Positions 5,604 to 38,103 of a stretch of DNA of 64,000 bases are shown piece after piece; within the stretch, counting starts at the first letter, position 1, and every line of letters begins with the position of its first letter. Origin of the DNA: an uncultured Gammaproteobacteria bacterium (GTDB taxonomy: Bacteria > Patescibacteriota > Microgenomatia > Levybacterales > UBA12049); the NCBI GenBank assembly GCA_964507055.1, contig CAZDOJ010000003.1:4819-68818 (forward strand), in the 5' to 3' direction. The notes below the pieces were generated by a model. That model searched no databases. It had not been told where the DNA came from and was given only the letters and a program-made list of their open reading frames with translations. The position numbers were made by a program, and so were the translations under genes.

Positions 5604-8600
5604 TTAATTAACAATCCACCAACTCAACCTCACATCAGTGGACTCTGCAGATCGTACCCGAATTTCAAATGTGTCAGCTGCAGTCTTCTTAACCGCAGTA
5701 GTCACTGGAATTTCTTCTGCTTGGACAAAGATCTTTGATTTATCGGACAGAGCAGAAGTCTTAACAATAACTTTTGTTTGCCCTTCCTTTAAGACAACTT
5801 CTCCTAAGGATGCACTTGCAACTTCTTCAGTATCGATATTGACCTTCTTCGCCGTAATCTCCCCTTCAGACTTCATGTTACCTTTATTATCGATTGTTAT
5901 CTTACCGTTGAGGATATCAATTCCGTTAAGACCATTTGATTGCAGTCGTAATGCTCCGACAGATGTGTTGATGGCAGCAGAACCTTCGTTATCAAGTCCT
6001 TCGATGCTAAGAAGCCCAACATTCACCTTTCCTGTGATACCTACGTCTGCAAGCGTTGTACGCCCTACAACAGCCAATGTATCAGTGACTGTGACTTTGT
6101 TAACATCAAGCTTCTCTAGATCAAGTTCTGCTGCAGATGAAGCAGTAAATCCTCCAGGTGCACTTGTCATGAAAGCTGAACTGCTCGCAGAATCCTCGAG
6201 TGTTGAAACTCGCGTAGTTAATGCTGCAAGCATGTCTTGGAGAACATTGGTCTTGCTCTTTACAGTAGTCAAAGCTGATGAGGTCGCCGTTCGTGCATTG
6301 AATGAATCATCAGAGATATTAGTGTTCTGGTTTTGAGCAAGTTGTGGATTAAATGGTTTACCATCAACTGAAATATTTCCATCTGAACTTAACGTGGCAC
6401 GTGGGTCGTACCATGATGGATTAACCAATGCAACAACTTTACCCACTGCACGAGGATCAGGATTATTGTATGATTCAACAGCCTTTGCGATTGTAGTACC
6501 AGCTTGTGTAGCCTTCATAGCAACCCCCGGAATACTACTCGAAGTAAGGTAATCACCAGGTTTGATTGGACCATTTTCGGTACTAACCTTTGTAGGAATT
6601 CTTCCAGCAAGTGCAATTGGATACTTCTTATCATTACCAAATCGTCTCTCTTCATCACCGAATCCTCCCAAAAGGATACCTGGCTTTGTAGAAACGATAC
6701 CGAGGATACTTCCCTGATAAGAATTCTCTGAGCGTTTGACGTATTCTGTATTATTTGGATCAGCAATAACAAGATCTCCTGGCTCCAATGTATTGTCTTT
6801 TGATGGATAATTCTCAGCTAAATCGATTGCGGTAACTGTACTGGATTCTGCATAGATACGTCCTGCTAGTCGTGAAGCATCATCACAATTACTTCCTCCA
6901 TCATCAACACAAAGTGCACCATTACCGACATGAAGAGAACCATCTGGCAGATTTGTAAAATTATTTGTGCCCAAACCAAACGATGCCGCACCAGTAAGGG
7001 TTGCCAATGTTACCGTCGCAGCTCCATTATTTTCAAATACAAATCCCGCATTAGCATCATAGACTTTCAAATAAACATTCTCTGCAGTTCCAGCATTGTA
7101 TTGAGAGAATAAGATACCTCCACCAATATTTGCACCATATATATTTGGATTTTGGATATAATTTAATGAAGATATTCCTCGTACATCGAAATCATAATTA
7201 GGATCCGTAAGTCCAATACCAACTCTTCCGCCTCCTCGTTGTAAAATAAGATCATCGTAAACCCCACCAATAATGGATGCAATATCATTGTAACCTCCGC
7301 CTGTTCTGTTTGTGCCAAATGCCAGATAATTCAGTGAGCCAGGTCCATCAGTGAATAGTACAGAATCTCCACTTGTATTTCCTGCAACATACAAAGGATT
7401 TCCTGGATTGGTTACTCCCCCAATACCTACATTTCCGCTATTCGTAATCACGAATTTGGTAGCCCCACTCTTTGAGGCGGTAAAGAGATCTCCGACGCCA
7501 TTATTATCGACCATGAAAGCGGCTTTTGCAGTACTCGCTGATATCGAAGCTGCCGGAGCGGTTCCGCTAGTACCAAAGATACTCAATGCTCCATTTATTG
7601 TTTGTTCCCCGTTAACTGATAATCCATTCCACATTTGAGCATTTCCTGCGACAGTGAGACTGCCATTACTAAAGATATTTCCGGCAAAAACACTTCCGCC
7701 TACAGCTCCATTGCCAACCATACCTGAAGCTGATGCGATATTGCCTCCAGATAATCCGATGAGGTCAAGATTTGCGTTCATTGAAATTCTTGCTGTACTT
7801 GCATAGTAGACAGTGCTTTGAATACCACTAGTACCACTTGTGGTTGTAGAGCCTCCCACTACATACATATATCCGTTTTCGATAACACCATTCTTCGAGA
7901 TGTTCCCACGAACTCCAGGAATTAAGTATTGATTGGTTGCCCATGTTCCTACAGTTCCATTGTCATTCAATTTTGCAAAGAAAACTTCATCTTGAGCATT
8001 ACTTGTATCATCTCCTCCCATCGCATAGACATAACCATTTGCCACAACTGATGAATGACCTACTCTTGCGGCTGGCATTCCATTGGTTGAAGTCCATGAA
8101 CCGACAGAACCATCACCATTTAGCTTTGCAAAATAAACATTTGTTGTACCGCCACTTGCATTACCTCCGATCATGTAGACATATCCATTAGCGACAACTG
8201 ATGTATGACCTCGAGTTGCTGCTGGAAGGTTGGTACCATTGGTCGTCCATGCTCCAATTGATCCATCTGAATTAATCTTTGCATAGTAAATGCTATTGAT
8301 ATTGTTATTGATAACATTGTTTGATCCTCCAAGCATATACAAGTATCCATTGGCGACAACTGAAGATTGGGATTGAATAGCCTGAGGCAAGTTGGTTGCA
8401 GTCTGCCATGATCCAAGTGTTCCATCAGTATTAAGTCGTGCATAGTACACTTTATTTTGAAGCGTAATAGAAACCTGTCCACCAGCAACATACACATAGC
8501 CGTTATAAACCACTGCAGTTGCATTACTCAAACTTGTTGGAAGCGAAGACGTGGTTCTCCAGTCTCCTACAGAACCATCTGCATTTAATGCCGCATAATA

Positions 8601-37332: not shown

Positions 37333-38103
37333 ATGCTTAGAAAAGGTATTCTTGCCACGATTGTAGGATTGCTGTTTGTGACAGCTATTTCCCCTGTGGC
37401 AGCATCAGATTTATCAAACGGAACTGCCATAGGTGTTACAGTCTCAGACAAAGACATTCAGGACGGTGATATTATTAGCTCAACGCAAGAAGGTTACAAA
37501 AGAACTGTTTCAGCGTATGATCCACAAATCTTTGGAGTCATCAGTAAAAGACCAGCGGTATATTTAAGTGACACAACTTCCCCAACAGATCTTCCTGTCA
37601 TCAGTGTCGGACAAGCTCGCGTCCGAGTTACTACACAAAATGGAAATATCCAGCGAGGAGATTTTATAACTTCTTCAACAATACCGGGCGTTGGTCAGAA
37701 AGCGAGAGATAACGGCTATGTTATAGGTACAGCAGATCAAGATTACAGTAACAATGACACGAAGAAAGTTGGGATAATTCTTGTAACACTCCATCCTCAT
37801 TTCGCAAAACTATCAAACGATATCACAAGGAATCTTTGGAATACAGCAACATTAGGATTTACGGCTGCACTTGAAACACCTCTTGGATTTGTGAGATATG
37901 TGGTTTCCGGTACGATCGCATTACTTTCATTCTTCTTTGGATTTAGATTCTTCGCAAGATCATCCAATCGAGGTGTTGAAGCAATTGGACGTAACCCTCT
38001 TGCAAAGCAAGCAATCCTCTTAAGTGTGTTCATCAACAGTATGGTTACTATTGCAATTATGTTCTTTGGTGTTGCTATCGCGTATTTGATTCTAGTACTA
38101 TAA
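37333..38103 (+). CDS. Fusion-like membrane protein: N-terminal signal/anchor, a roughly 120-aa extracytoplasmic domain homologous to a C-terminal domain of giant protein B, and a C-terminal 2-TM hairpin resembling ATP synthase subunit c (loop 'VEAIGRNP') but lacking the conserved carboxylate and Gly motif. First gene of the atp operon.
   Basis: Strong RBS. Ends 4 nt before atpF. The C-terminus '[46 protein letters not shown]' resembles the c-subunit loop 'QGKAVEGIARQPE' followed by helix 2, but the E/D position holds Ile/Thr. The ectodomain '[14 protein letters not shown]...[22 protein letters not shown]' matches giant B 'GDLVIADPNNTEYVKRS...[22 protein letters not shown]'. Confidence 0.6.
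   Translation: [256 protein letters not shown]

What the first reader, a model, noticed from the sequence alone, without database searches (positions are those of the whole stretch)
6400..37700. A roughly 120-aa domain shared between the C-terminal region of giant protein B and the ectodomain of the atp-operon leader protein
Giant B near its C-terminus ('GDLVIADPNNTEYVKRSENSYQGSILGIVSTKPG...[50 protein letters not shown]...VGKVVALVNPSWYDP', about 6400-6800) aligns clearly with residues about 55-175 of the 37333-38103 protein ('[33 protein letters not shown]...[47 protein letters not shown]...[12 protein letters not shown]'). The conserved core is 'NG.I..GD[FY][IL]TSS.IPGV..KA'. A module exchanged between a giant surface fibre and a membrane protein co-transcribed with ATP synthase suggests a common binding partner or cell-envelope anchoring function.
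Basis: seen in the sequence. Interest (0 to 1): 0.65.

Follow-up and report, generated by a model that had tools for sequence, protein, structure and literature searches.

The report
Phage-spike domain on F1-like ATPase rotor
The shared domain is real: it is a phage tail-spike folding domain that sits both on a giant surface protein and on a proton-site-less rotor subunit of a second, F1-type ATPase, which in these tiny bacteria almost always lies beside the giant-protein genes.

Summary
Giant B residues 2310-2448 align with residues 39-163 of the 256-aa protein (31% identity, BLASTP E 2e-17, z 28.8 against shuffles).

The module is a relative of the phi29 gp12 D4 autochaperone (VIA-align Z 13.7-13.8, rmsd 2.4-2.5 A). 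No Pfam model reaches threshold, yet a profile finds 26,883 protein clusters. Copies in giant proteins keep an invariant DxAE motif that aligns with the first residues of cleaved gp12. The 256-aa protein lacks it.

That protein is not a leader peptide. It has a signal peptide, the D4-like ectodomain and an ATP synthase c-subunit hairpin (Z about 11) with Thr where the ion-binding Glu should be. It heads a seven-gene set (ecto-c, b, delta, alpha, gamma, beta, epsilon) with no subunit a, separate from the canonical atp operon.

The set recurs across Patescibacteria beside giant proteins with an N-terminal MerR DNA-binding domain (helix-turn-helix, HTH). In 16 of 27 carrier genomes no other a or c subunit was found. 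Elsewhere the same hairpin ends surface proteins of up to 2,589 aa.

My best reading, which is inferred, is an ATP-driven F1-like motor coupled to surface fibres. No description of it was found in the searchable literature.

The parts
5604..13724 (-). Giant B, 2706 aa: N-terminal MerR HTH, one TM helix, long repetitive ectodomain with a Kelch propeller, D4-like module, 258-aa tail
13596..13706 (-). MerR-type HTH of giant B (residues 7-43), predicted cytoplasmic because it precedes the single TM helix at about residues 127-148
   Evidence: Pfam PF00376 E 1e-11, above cut-off; the topology is inferred from the sequence
6381..6824 (-). gp12-D4-like (tandem beta-tulip, Peptidase_G2-like) module of giant B, residues 2301-2448
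6813..6824 (-). DLAE motif (D2301-E2304). D, A and E are invariant in 39 relatives. It aligns with residues 1-4 of the cleaved phi29 gp12 fragment, giving a predicted self-cleavage site I2300|D2301
   Evidence: the cleavage itself is inferred, not shown
5607..6380 (-). C-terminal tail of giant B (residues 2449-2706): a long helix with low model confidence, then a beta domain ending in WWIVN. The tail is shared with the 1434-aa protein and many relatives
37333..38103 (+). Ecto-c protein (the 'leader'), 256 aa, first gene of the F1-like set
37333..37404 (+). Predicted signal peptide, residues 1-24 (hydrophobic helix 3-17, then Ala-Ala-Ser)
   Evidence: and the sequence; the cleavage site is inferred
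37405..37821 (+). D4-like ectodomain, residues 25-163, without the DxAE motif
37879..38100 (+). c-subunit-like TM hairpin, residues 183-256. The cytoplasmic loop [11 protein letters not shown] is invariant. Thr239 stands where the canonical c subunit has its ion-binding Glu
38108..38821 (+). b-like peripheral-stalk protein, 237 aa (one N-terminal TM helix, then a long coiled coil)
   Evidence: weak NCBIfam hit to subunit B, E 0.012; position conserved in other genomes
38839..39342 (+). delta/OSCP-like subunit, 167 aa
   Evidence: PF00213 at its cut-off; NF009976 E 4e-6
39339..40832 (+). F1-like alpha, 497 aa, with Walker A and the Arg-finger region present
   Evidence: 412 bits against a cut-off of 554 for canonical alpha
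40840..41730 (+). F1-like gamma. The start is more likely the ATG at 40840 than the GTG at 40732 of the ORF list
41791..43182 (+). F1-like beta, 463 aa, with Walker A GGAGVGKT and GERTREG present
   Evidence: 450.8 bits against the atpD cut-off of 462.85
43186..43587 (+). epsilon-like subunit, 133 aa
19070..35968 (-). Giant A, 5632 aa, MerR HTH at the N-terminus, no D4-like module. It is transcribed divergently from the F1-like set
2..4999 (-). Third MerR-HTH giant of the array. It runs off the window and is 3272 aa in the genome
63450..63998 (+). Start of a 1434-aa protein (integrase SAM-like N-terminus) that carries another D4-like module with DLAE just beyond the window end

Best explanation
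SHOWN. The shared module of about 140 aa is a homolog of the D4 autochaperone of the phage phi29 tail spike gp12 (tandem beta-tulip fold, Peptidase_G2 kind). In giant B, and in most giant-protein copies examined, it keeps an invariant DxAE motif. That motif aligns with the first residues of the self-cleaved gp12 fragment.

The 256-aa protein has a signal peptide, the same module without DxAE, and an ATP synthase c-subunit hairpin. The hairpin's cytoplasmic loop is invariant, but its ion-binding carboxylate is replaced (Thr239). This protein is the first gene of an extra F-type gene set (ecto-c, b, delta, alpha, gamma, beta, epsilon) that has no subunit a.

The set is conserved across Patescibacteria and lies next to genes for giant proteins with a MerR HTH, one TM helix and a long ectodomain. 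In other lineages the same hairpin is the C-terminal anchor of surface proteins of 497 to 2,589 aa, which also precede alpha-gamma-beta genes.

INFERRED. In the giants the module acts as in gp12: it drives trimer folding of the fibre and then cuts itself off, at I2300|D2301 in giant B. The F1-like complex cannot pump or use ions. It hydrolyses ATP, and its gamma-epsilon shaft engages the conserved loop of the ecto-c subunits. Torque or conformational work therefore crosses the membrane to the external domain. That domain, a protein-protein interaction module by ancestry, engages the neighbouring giant fibres. The system would then be an ATP-powered actuator or assembly device for giant surface fibres, working like the mycoplasma Type 2/3 F1-like ATPases but built differently.
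For: Homology of the two segments: E 2e-17, z 28.8.

Fold: the P0002 model has pLDDT 86. Residues 26-154 match gp12 D4 at Z 13.8 (3suc, rmsd 2.5 A over 117 residues) and Z 13.7 (3gqh_A, rmsd 2.4 A over 113, 19% identity). Phage decoration proteins follow at Z 9.7-12.3. Foldseek gives the same families for the giant B model (3gqh_A E 4.5e-4). Profile A4 hits 3gqh_A at E 0.015, with its residue 1 (DFAE...) on the invariant DxAE. DxAE is present in 245 of 277 giant-type copies and in 0 of 2 short (ecto-c-type) proteins in that set; 1 of 121 P0002-family members has it in the first 80 aa.

c-like hairpin: Z about 11, rmsd 1.3-2 A over whole c subunits. It has the same EAIGRNP loop as the genome's own canonical c. 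The Glu column holds T, V, S or A. Only 1 of 115 family members has D or E in the last 30 residues. G214, E216, G219, R220, N221, P222 and A224 are invariant in 81 sequences.

Extra F-type set: the canonical a and c subunits are on C1. The window's alpha and beta score below the canonical cut-offs. Canonical betas are 63-70% identical to the genome's own canonical beta, against 39-42% for F1-like betas.

Synteny: 13 of 16 other loci have the same gene string, 14 of 16 have an adjacent ORF of at least 500 aa, and 10 of 10 tested flanking giants start with a MerR HTH. In this genome all 4 MerR giants lie in two arrays, each adjacent to one of the two F1-like sets.

Only F-type set: 16 of 27 genomes with a strong ecto-c have no PF00119 match. 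Fifteen of those 16 have the ecto-c as their single hairpin match; the sixteenth, G030, has no hairpin match.

Direct fusions of large ectodomains to the hairpin occur, and in G009, G285 and G019 they are followed by alpha-gamma-beta.

Against: Nothing here shows binding, rotation, ATPase activity, expression or self-cleavage.

TM1 of the ecto-c has lost the GxGxGxG packing motif of canonical c subunits and is Phe-rich. A classical ring is therefore not assured.

The complex has no identified stator partner in the membrane, because subunit a is missing.

In 5 of 5 genomes tested the ecto-c holds the only D4-like copy. Docking onto a giant's own D4 module therefore cannot be the general coupling mode. 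Giant A, the immediate neighbour here, has no D4 module.

Three of 16 ecto-c genes were not followed by alpha and beta within 20 kb.

The beta tree does not resolve the F1-like sequences as one clade.

The gp12 sequence match alone is marginal (E 0.015-0.17). The family assignment rests mainly on predicted structure.
Confidence: 0.5

Rival explanations
1. The sharing is incidental. The D4-like module is one of the commonest building blocks of Patescibacteria surface proteins. Giant B and the ecto-c each use it for their own oligomerisation or wall attachment, with no specific partnership through this domain. The ecto-c crown might simply bind the cell wall or form the ring's external collar.
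For: 26,883 protein clusters carry the module, and 120 of 301 sampled genomes have it. In 5 of 5 genomes tested the giants next to the ecto-c set lack it. Other ecto-c proteins carry unrelated ectodomains. Beta-tulip domains are general trimer and interaction modules (bioRxiv 10.1101/216911).
Against: This rival does not explain why the F1-like set sits beside MerR-giant genes in nearly every genome examined. It also does not explain why giant ectodomains are sometimes fused directly to the hairpin. It is compatible with a functional link that does not run through the shared domain.
Confidence: 0.3
2. The ecto-c acts as a chaperone or assembly platform in trans. Its membrane-anchored D4-like domain templates trimer folding of giant fibres that lack their own autochaperone (such as giant A), and the F1-like ATPase powers release or resetting.
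For: The D4 domain of gp12 is required for trimer assembly of the spike (bioRxiv 10.1101/216911, citing Xiang et al. 2009). The immediate neighbour giant A has no D4 module, nor do the flanking giants in 5 other genomes. The ecto-c copy has lost DxAE, as expected for a domain that must stay attached.
Against: No intermolecular action is known for this domain family. Many genomes with D4-less giants have no ecto-c (about 40 of 301 have it). Ecto-c proteins with non-D4 ectodomains exist.
Confidence: 0.15
3. The cluster is an ordinary, if divergent, ATP synthase or ion pump. It borrows subunit a (and perhaps c) from the canonical operon, and the 256-aa protein is only an accessory or AtpI-like assembly factor.
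For: This genome does have a canonical a and c elsewhere. Both c types share the EAIGRNP loop. b, delta and epsilon homologs are present. A 2026 preprint treats unusual CPR beta neighbourhoods within F-ATPase evolution (10.64898/2026.10.01.756066).
Against: 16 of 27 carrier genomes (94-100% complete, by their rounded quality figures) have no a-subunit match, and none of the 16 has a canonical c. The cluster's only c-like protein has no membrane carboxylate in 114 of 115 members. The hairpin matches c subunits end to end, which does not suggest AtpI.
Confidence: 0.05

Closest known systems
phi29 gp12 (pre-neck appendage / tail spike) C-terminal D4 autochaperone; Pfam PF11962 Peptidase_G2 (PDB 3gqh, 3suc)
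   Same: Same fold (Z 13.7-13.8, rmsd about 2.4 A). Same position near the C-terminus of a long fibrous protein. The DxAE motif falls exactly at the start of the cleaved fragment. Some relatives of giant B carry a precomputed PF11962 hit.
   Different: Sequence similarity is below Pfam's threshold (best E 9.5e-4 among 15 members). The hosts are cellular giant surface proteins, not phage spikes. The module is often present in two copies, each with DxAE, and is followed by a further tail of 150-430 aa. In the ecto-c it is N-terminal, lacks DxAE and is fused to a membrane hairpin.
Phage capsid decoration / cement proteins of the beta-tulip kind (Borrelia phage BB1, Pam3, Sf11, HFTV1, TW1, XM1 gp53 PF23982)
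   Same: Foldseek E 2e-4 to 1e-2 and VIA Z 9.7-12.3 over the whole ectodomain. Sub-threshold PF23982 hits occur in 5 of 15 members.
   Different: These are stand-alone capsid-binding trimers. No capsid context exists here.
F1Fo ATP synthase subunit c (PF00137)
   Same: Two-helix hairpin superposing on whole c subunits at 1.3-2 A. It has the EAIGRNP loop of the genome's own canonical c, sits in an operon with the other F-type subunits, and has the matching topology (N-terminus outside).
   Different: It has no ion-binding Glu/Asp and no GxGxGxG motif in TM1. It carries a 160-aa (elsewhere up to about 2,500-aa) N-terminal ectodomain behind a signal peptide, and has no partner subunit a. It is below Pfam and NCBIfam thresholds.
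Mycoplasma Type 2 (gliding G1) and Type 3 (F1-like X0, MIB-MIP) ATPases
   Same: An extra seven-gene F1-like set alongside the canonical operon, with no subunit a. [quoted passage not shown]
   Different: The alpha and beta here score closer to canonical atpA/atpD than to the mycoplasma families (beta 451 bits against atpD, 358 for MSC_0618 and 349 for MMOB1670, all below cut-off). b and delta homologs are present. There is no 12-TM protein and no 19-kDa cytoplasmic protein. The origin is apparently independent, in a different phylum.
N-ATPase (alternate F1Fo, TIGR03305/TIGR03324)
   Same: A second, laterally mobile F-type operon found beside the canonical one.
   Different: N-ATPases keep a and c subunits with ion sites and translocate Na+. 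The scores here are far below the cut-offs (401 against 752 for beta).

Membership tests
gp12 D4 autochaperone / Peptidase_G2 (PF11962) | Sequence match to the family model above its gathering score | tested here: not met
   No hit for giant B or P0002 at E <= 0.1. 2 of 15 members give sub-threshold hits, best E 9.5e-4 and 13.7 bits against a cut-off of 25. Some relatives carry precomputed PF11962 hits.
gp12 D4 autochaperone / Peptidase_G2 (PF11962) | Tandem beta-tulip fold superposable on the solved D4 domain | tested here: met
   3suc Z 13.8 (rmsd 2.5 A over 117 residues); 3gqh_A Z 13.7 (rmsd 2.4 A over 113), covering chain residues 692-854. The giant B model hits 3gqh_A at Foldseek E 4.5e-4. 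These are predicted models, not solved structures.
gp12 D4 autochaperone / Peptidase_G2 (PF11962) | Acidic motif at the self-cleavage site (the released fragment of gp12 starts D-F-A-E) | tested here: met
   Met for giant B only: D2301-L-A-E2304 aligns with residues 1-4 of 3gqh_A. D, A and E are invariant in 39 relatives. The motif is present in 245 of 277 giant-type copies. It is not met in the 256-aa ecto-c.
gp12 D4 autochaperone / Peptidase_G2 (PF11962) | Autoproteolytic release and a requirement for trimer folding | not testable with these tools
   Needs protein chemistry.
ATP synthase subunit c (PF00137) | Match to the family model above threshold | tested here: not met
   No Pfam hit for residues 160-256 at E <= 1. 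NCBIfam subunit C gives E 0.0088, 16 bits against a cut-off of 122. BLASTP to the genome's own c gives E 1e-4 over the loop only.
ATP synthase subunit c (PF00137) | Helical hairpin with a conserved polar cytoplasmic loop (R-Q/N-P) | tested here: met
   Z 10-11, rmsd 1.3-2.1 A over 69-77 residues of many c subunits. R220-N221-P222 are invariant.
ATP synthase subunit c (PF00137) | Membrane-embedded Glu/Asp that binds the coupling ion | tested here: not met
   The column holding Glu in the genome's canonical c holds T, V, S or A. D or E occurs in the last 30 residues in 1 of 115 members.
Canonical F1Fo ATP synthase operon | Presence of subunit a (PF00119) with the set | tested here: not met
   There is no a-like ORF between 37333 and 43587. 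The genome's only PF00119 match is at C1:634445-635077. 16 of 27 carrier genomes have no match at all.
Canonical F1Fo ATP synthase operon | alpha and beta reach the equivalog cut-offs | tested here: not met
   alpha scores 412 against 554 (NF009884) and 375 against 484 (TIGR00962). beta scores 450.8 against 462.85 (TIGR01039).
Mycoplasma Type 2/3 F1-like ATPases | alpha and beta belong to the MSC_0619/MSC_0618 or MMOB1660/1670 families | tested here: not met
   247 against 520, 357.5 against 570, 348.5 against 600, and 349 against 850 bits.
Mycoplasma Type 2/3 F1-like ATPases | Cluster includes a 12-TM protein and lacks b and delta | tested here: not met
   The gene content here is ecto-c, b-like, delta, alpha, gamma, beta, epsilon.
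Mycoplasma Type 2/3 F1-like ATPases | Works with surface proteins by ATP hydrolysis | not testable with these tools
   Only the gene neighbourhood supports this.

The most novel reading that the evidence does not exclude
Patescibacteria possess a previously undescribed rotary surface motor. An F1 head turns a ring of c-like subunits that carry no ion sites but bear extracellular domains, from a 140-aa D4 module to whole 2,500-aa fibres. ATP hydrolysis in the cytoplasm would then spin, wind or pull giant surface fibres used to attach to or act on host cells. In many of these organisms the genes annotated as 'ATP synthase' would encode this motor and not an energy-conserving enzyme.
Probability: 0.3. 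Interest if true: 0.95.

Novelty: new variant of a known kind. Interest (0 to 1): 0.78.

Why it matters
There are three reasons.

1. Metabolic reconstructions of CPR/Patescibacteria count alpha, beta, gamma, delta and epsilon genes as evidence for an ATP synthase. In 16 of 27 carrier genomes sampled here, those genes belong to a set with no subunit a and no ion-binding c subunit. That set cannot conserve energy in the known way.

2. F1-like ATPases that do mechanical work on surface proteins were thought to be specific to mycoplasmas (PMC3369863). An independent, structurally different version in another group of ultra-small, host-dependent bacteria would make this a recurrent solution. It would also offer a simpler system, with b and delta stalks and a recognisable c-like rotor, for asking how F1 torque is used outside bioenergetics.

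3. The finding gives a first functional handle on the giant MerR-HTH surface proteins that take up a large share of these small genomes. It also defines a very large, uncurated family of gp12-D4-like self-cleaving modules (about 27,000 clusters).

Tried and rejected
- Complex prediction with three copies of the ecto-c ectodomain (residues 25-182, alignment A3) returned 'no answer'. It is not used for or against self-association.
- Pfam, NCBIfam and PHROGs scans of both segments gave no family above threshold. Only sub-threshold leads appeared: PF23982, PF11962, PF09956, phrog_6427.
- The last word-indexed search, for longer proteins carrying the hairpin, found nothing. Six-frame genome searches with a hairpin profile did find them, so the blank came from the method.
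- A beta-subunit tree with alpha as outgroup did not resolve the F1-like sequences as a clade. The canonical sequences cluster at 62/100 support and many forks are open. No claim about the order of events is made.
- tRNA and Rfam scans of the window found nothing.
- Literature searches found no description of an ecto-c protein or of a link between an F1-like set and giant proteins in CPR. One preprint mentions unusual CPR beta-subunit neighbourhoods without these features in its main text. Its supplementary figures were not read.
- I considered and rejected homotypic docking of the ecto-c domain onto a giant's own D4 module as the universal coupling mode, because.

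
Full report
OBSERVATION. Giant B is the ORF at window 5604-13724(-), 2706 aa. The 'leader' protein is 37333-38103(+), 256 aa, here called P0002. BLASTP aligns giant B residues 2310-2448 with P0002 residues 39-163 at 31% identity, E 2e-17. The local alignment score is 28.8 standard deviations above 1000 shuffles. The similarity is therefore real and not compositional.

A tblastn search of the whole 1.56-Mb genome finds six copies of the module:
- giant B;
- a 1434-aa protein whose gene begins at window 63450;
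- two copies in a giant of at least 11,724 aa on contig C1;
- P0002;
- a 268-aa paralog of P0002 on C1.

WHAT THE MODULE IS. No Pfam, NCBIfam or PHROG model reaches threshold. A 15-sequence profile (A2) nevertheless finds 26,883 protein clusters at E <= 1e-3 among 1.84 billion representatives. Nearly all of the top 150 are proteins of 500-6,800 aa, with the module 100-600 residues from the C-terminus. Among the top 148 re-scanned, 141 carry it twice.

The AlphaFold2 model of P0002 (81-sequence alignment, pLDDT 86) has a beta-rich ectodomain at residues 26-158. Its best structural matches are the D4 autochaperone of the phi29 tail spike gp12: 3suc at Z 13.8 (rmsd 2.5 A over 117 residues) and 3gqh_A at Z 13.7 (rmsd 2.4 A over 113, 19% identity). 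Beta-tulip capsid decoration proteins follow at Z 9.7-12.3. The model of giant B's last 422 residues (module pLDDT above 90) hits the same structures (3gqh_A at E 4.5e-4).

A profile of 39 giant-type C-termini (A4) hits 3gqh_A at E 0.015. Residue 1 of that crystallised, self-cleaved fragment (D-F-A-E) falls on the invariant D-x-A-E of the giants. In giant B this is D2301-L-A-E2304. DxAE is present in 245 of 277 giant-type copies. It is present in 0 of 2 short proteins in that set and in 1 of 121 P0002-family members.

By analogy with gp12, the giant-type module is most likely a self-cleaving trimerisation chaperone. The D4 region of gp12 is needed for spike trimer assembly and is then removed (bioRxiv 10.1101/216911, citing Xiang et al. 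2009). Cleavage at I2300|D2301 is a prediction, not a result.

WHAT P0002 IS. After the ectodomain come a short helix (164-181) and two long helices (183-220 and 222-255). These superpose on complete ATP synthase c subunits at Z about 11 and rmsd 1.3-2 A. The loop [11 protein letters not shown] is invariant or nearly so across 81 family members. It matches the loop of the genome's own canonical c subunit.

In canonical enzymes this loop contacts gamma and epsilon, which is established knowledge of F1Fo. The column that holds the ion-binding Glu in the canonical c (G-F-A-E-A-I-A) holds Thr239 in P0002 and V, S, A or T in relatives. Only 1 of 115 members has any Asp or Glu in the last 30 residues. 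The Gly-rich packing motif of TM1 is also lost. P0002 is therefore a c-subunit homolog that cannot carry the coupling ion. It displays a D4-like domain outside the cell: the signal peptide and the known topology of c subunits both place the N-terminus outside.

THE OPERON. Downstream lie a b-like protein, delta, alpha, gamma, beta and epsilon, from 38108 to 43587. There is no subunit a and no other c. Alpha and beta keep their nucleotide-binding motifs but fall below the canonical equivalog cut-offs. They fall far below those of the N-ATPase and mycoplasma families.

The genome has a complete canonical operon (a, c, b, delta, alpha, gamma, beta, epsilon) on C1 at about 634-640 kb. It also has a second copy of the unusual set on C1 at about 1273-1279 kb, headed by the P0002 paralog. 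Canonical betas of five other genomes are 63-70% identical to this genome's canonical beta. Their F1-like betas are 39-42% identical. A tree groups the canonical sequences (62/100) but leaves the rest unresolved.

DISTRIBUTION AND NEIGHBOURHOOD. In 301 sampled genomes of the phylum, 120 have the module. About 40 of these have it in a full-length P0002-type ORF of 256-378 aa.

Of 16 such loci fetched, 13 show the same gene string and 14 are flanked by an ORF of at least 500 aa. All 10 flanking giants tested begin with a MerR HTH above Pfam's cut-off, as do giants A and B and the third giant in the window. In this genome only four ORFs of at least 600 aa carry that HTH. They form two arrays, each directly adjacent to one of the two F1-like sets.

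Of the 27 genomes with a strong P0002-type match, 16 have no PF00119 match. Fifteen of those 16 have the ecto-c as their single hairpin match; the sixteenth, G030, has no hairpin match. There the unusual set is the only F-type machinery found. These genomes are 94-100% complete by their rounded quality figures, and 'not found' applies to those searched.

The tallies include one unpublished genome (G154). No specific claim rests on it.

A BROADER FAMILY. A hairpin profile (A6) also finds the c-like hairpin at the C-terminus of much larger secreted proteins. Examples are 2,589 aa in G005, 2,571 aa in G009, 674 and 1,685 aa in G079, 760 aa in G285 and 497 aa in G019, among others. In G009, G285 and G019 these genes are followed by alpha, gamma and beta. 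So the hairpin is a general way of tying an external domain, sometimes a whole giant fibre, to an F1-like ATPase. The D4-like module is one of several passengers.

MECHANISM (INFERRED). The complex cannot work as an ion-driven synthase or an ion pump in the known manner, because it has no a subunit and no carboxylate. The F1 part looks catalytically competent. The only strongly conserved part of the ecto-c that faces the cytoplasm is the loop that canonically binds the gamma-epsilon rotor.

The most economical reading is that ATP hydrolysis turns or strains the ecto-c assembly, so that work reaches the external domains. These then act on, hold or help assemble the giant fibres encoded next door. 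The mycoplasma Type 2 (gliding) and Type 3 (MIB-MIP) F1-like ATPases are the functional precedent. [quoted passage not shown] The subunit families and cluster content differ, however, so membership is not claimed.

Several points weigh against the details. Ring formation is uncertain because TM1 is Phe-rich. No membrane stator is known. In 5 of 5 genomes tested the giants lack a D4 module, so the shared domain cannot be the universal point of contact. A role as a chaperone in trans, or mere wall anchoring, remains open.

VERDICT. The module is a new, very large, uncurated branch of a known fold family. The system around it is a new variant of the F1-like ATPase theme, and I found no description of it in the searchable literature.

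Noticed in passing
genome contig C1:1218732-1279323 (outside the window; loci L004, L005): There is a second copy of the whole arrangement. A P0002 paralog (268 aa) is followed by b, delta, alpha, gamma, beta and epsilon. About 1.4 kb further on come a 5878-aa MerR-HTH giant and an ORF of at least 11,724 aa with two D4-like copies.
   Followed up: partly
window 2-35968 (-): More than half of the window is one same-strand array of giant genes: 5632 aa, 1413 aa, 177 aa, 2706 aa, and more than 1666 aa (3272 aa in the genome). Three of them start with a MerR HTH followed by one TM helix. Why a surface fibre needs a cytoplasmic DNA-binding-type domain is unexplained.
   Followed up: partly
window 63450-63998 (+), continuing to C3:72566: A 1434-aa protein has two integrase SAM-like domains at its N-terminus (PF02899, PF13495) instead of a MerR HTH. 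It has a D4-like module with DLAE and the same WWIVN tail as giant B. Several relatives of giant B also start with these integrase-type domains.
   Followed up: partly
window 61790-63450: A stretch of about 1.6 kb has no ORF of 60 aa or more except one of 53 aa. GC is about 0.30 against 0.38-0.46 elsewhere. There is no tRNA and no Rfam match.
   Followed up: partly
window 7812-8717 (-), giant B residues about 1670-1971: A Kelch-type beta-propeller (PF24681, PF13964, PF01344) is embedded in the otherwise Gly/Thr/Ser/Asn-rich repetitive ectodomain.
   Followed up: no
window 36263-37222 (+): A 319-aa protein with a weak C-terminal DeoR-type HTH (E 9e-4, below cut-off) sits between giant A and the ecto-c gene. 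It may regulate the divergent pair.
   Followed up: no
L046 5488-7428 (-) (G019:C5): The F1-like beta of this genome is 646 aa, with an N-terminal extension of about 190 aa. This recalls the extended beta (MMOB1670) of the Mycoplasma mobile gliding motor. The ecto-c of this set is 497 aa.
   Followed up: no
window 43186-43587 and loci L013-L028: The epsilon subunits of the F1-like sets are mostly only 79-98 aa. That leaves the beta-sandwich without the C-terminal inhibitory helices. The window's copy is 133 aa because of a Pro/Gln-rich N-terminal extension.
   Followed up: no
window 40732-40840: The listed gamma ORF starts at a GTG that overlaps alpha by 100 nt. The Pfam match and the spacing suggest the ATG at 40840 as the real start.
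   Followed up: partly
relatives of giant B: Some relatives carry precomputed Pfam hits to an intein splicing domain (PF14890) or Peptidase_S74 (PF13884, the other tail-spike chaperone family). The giants therefore appear to draw on several self-processing modules.
   Followed up: no
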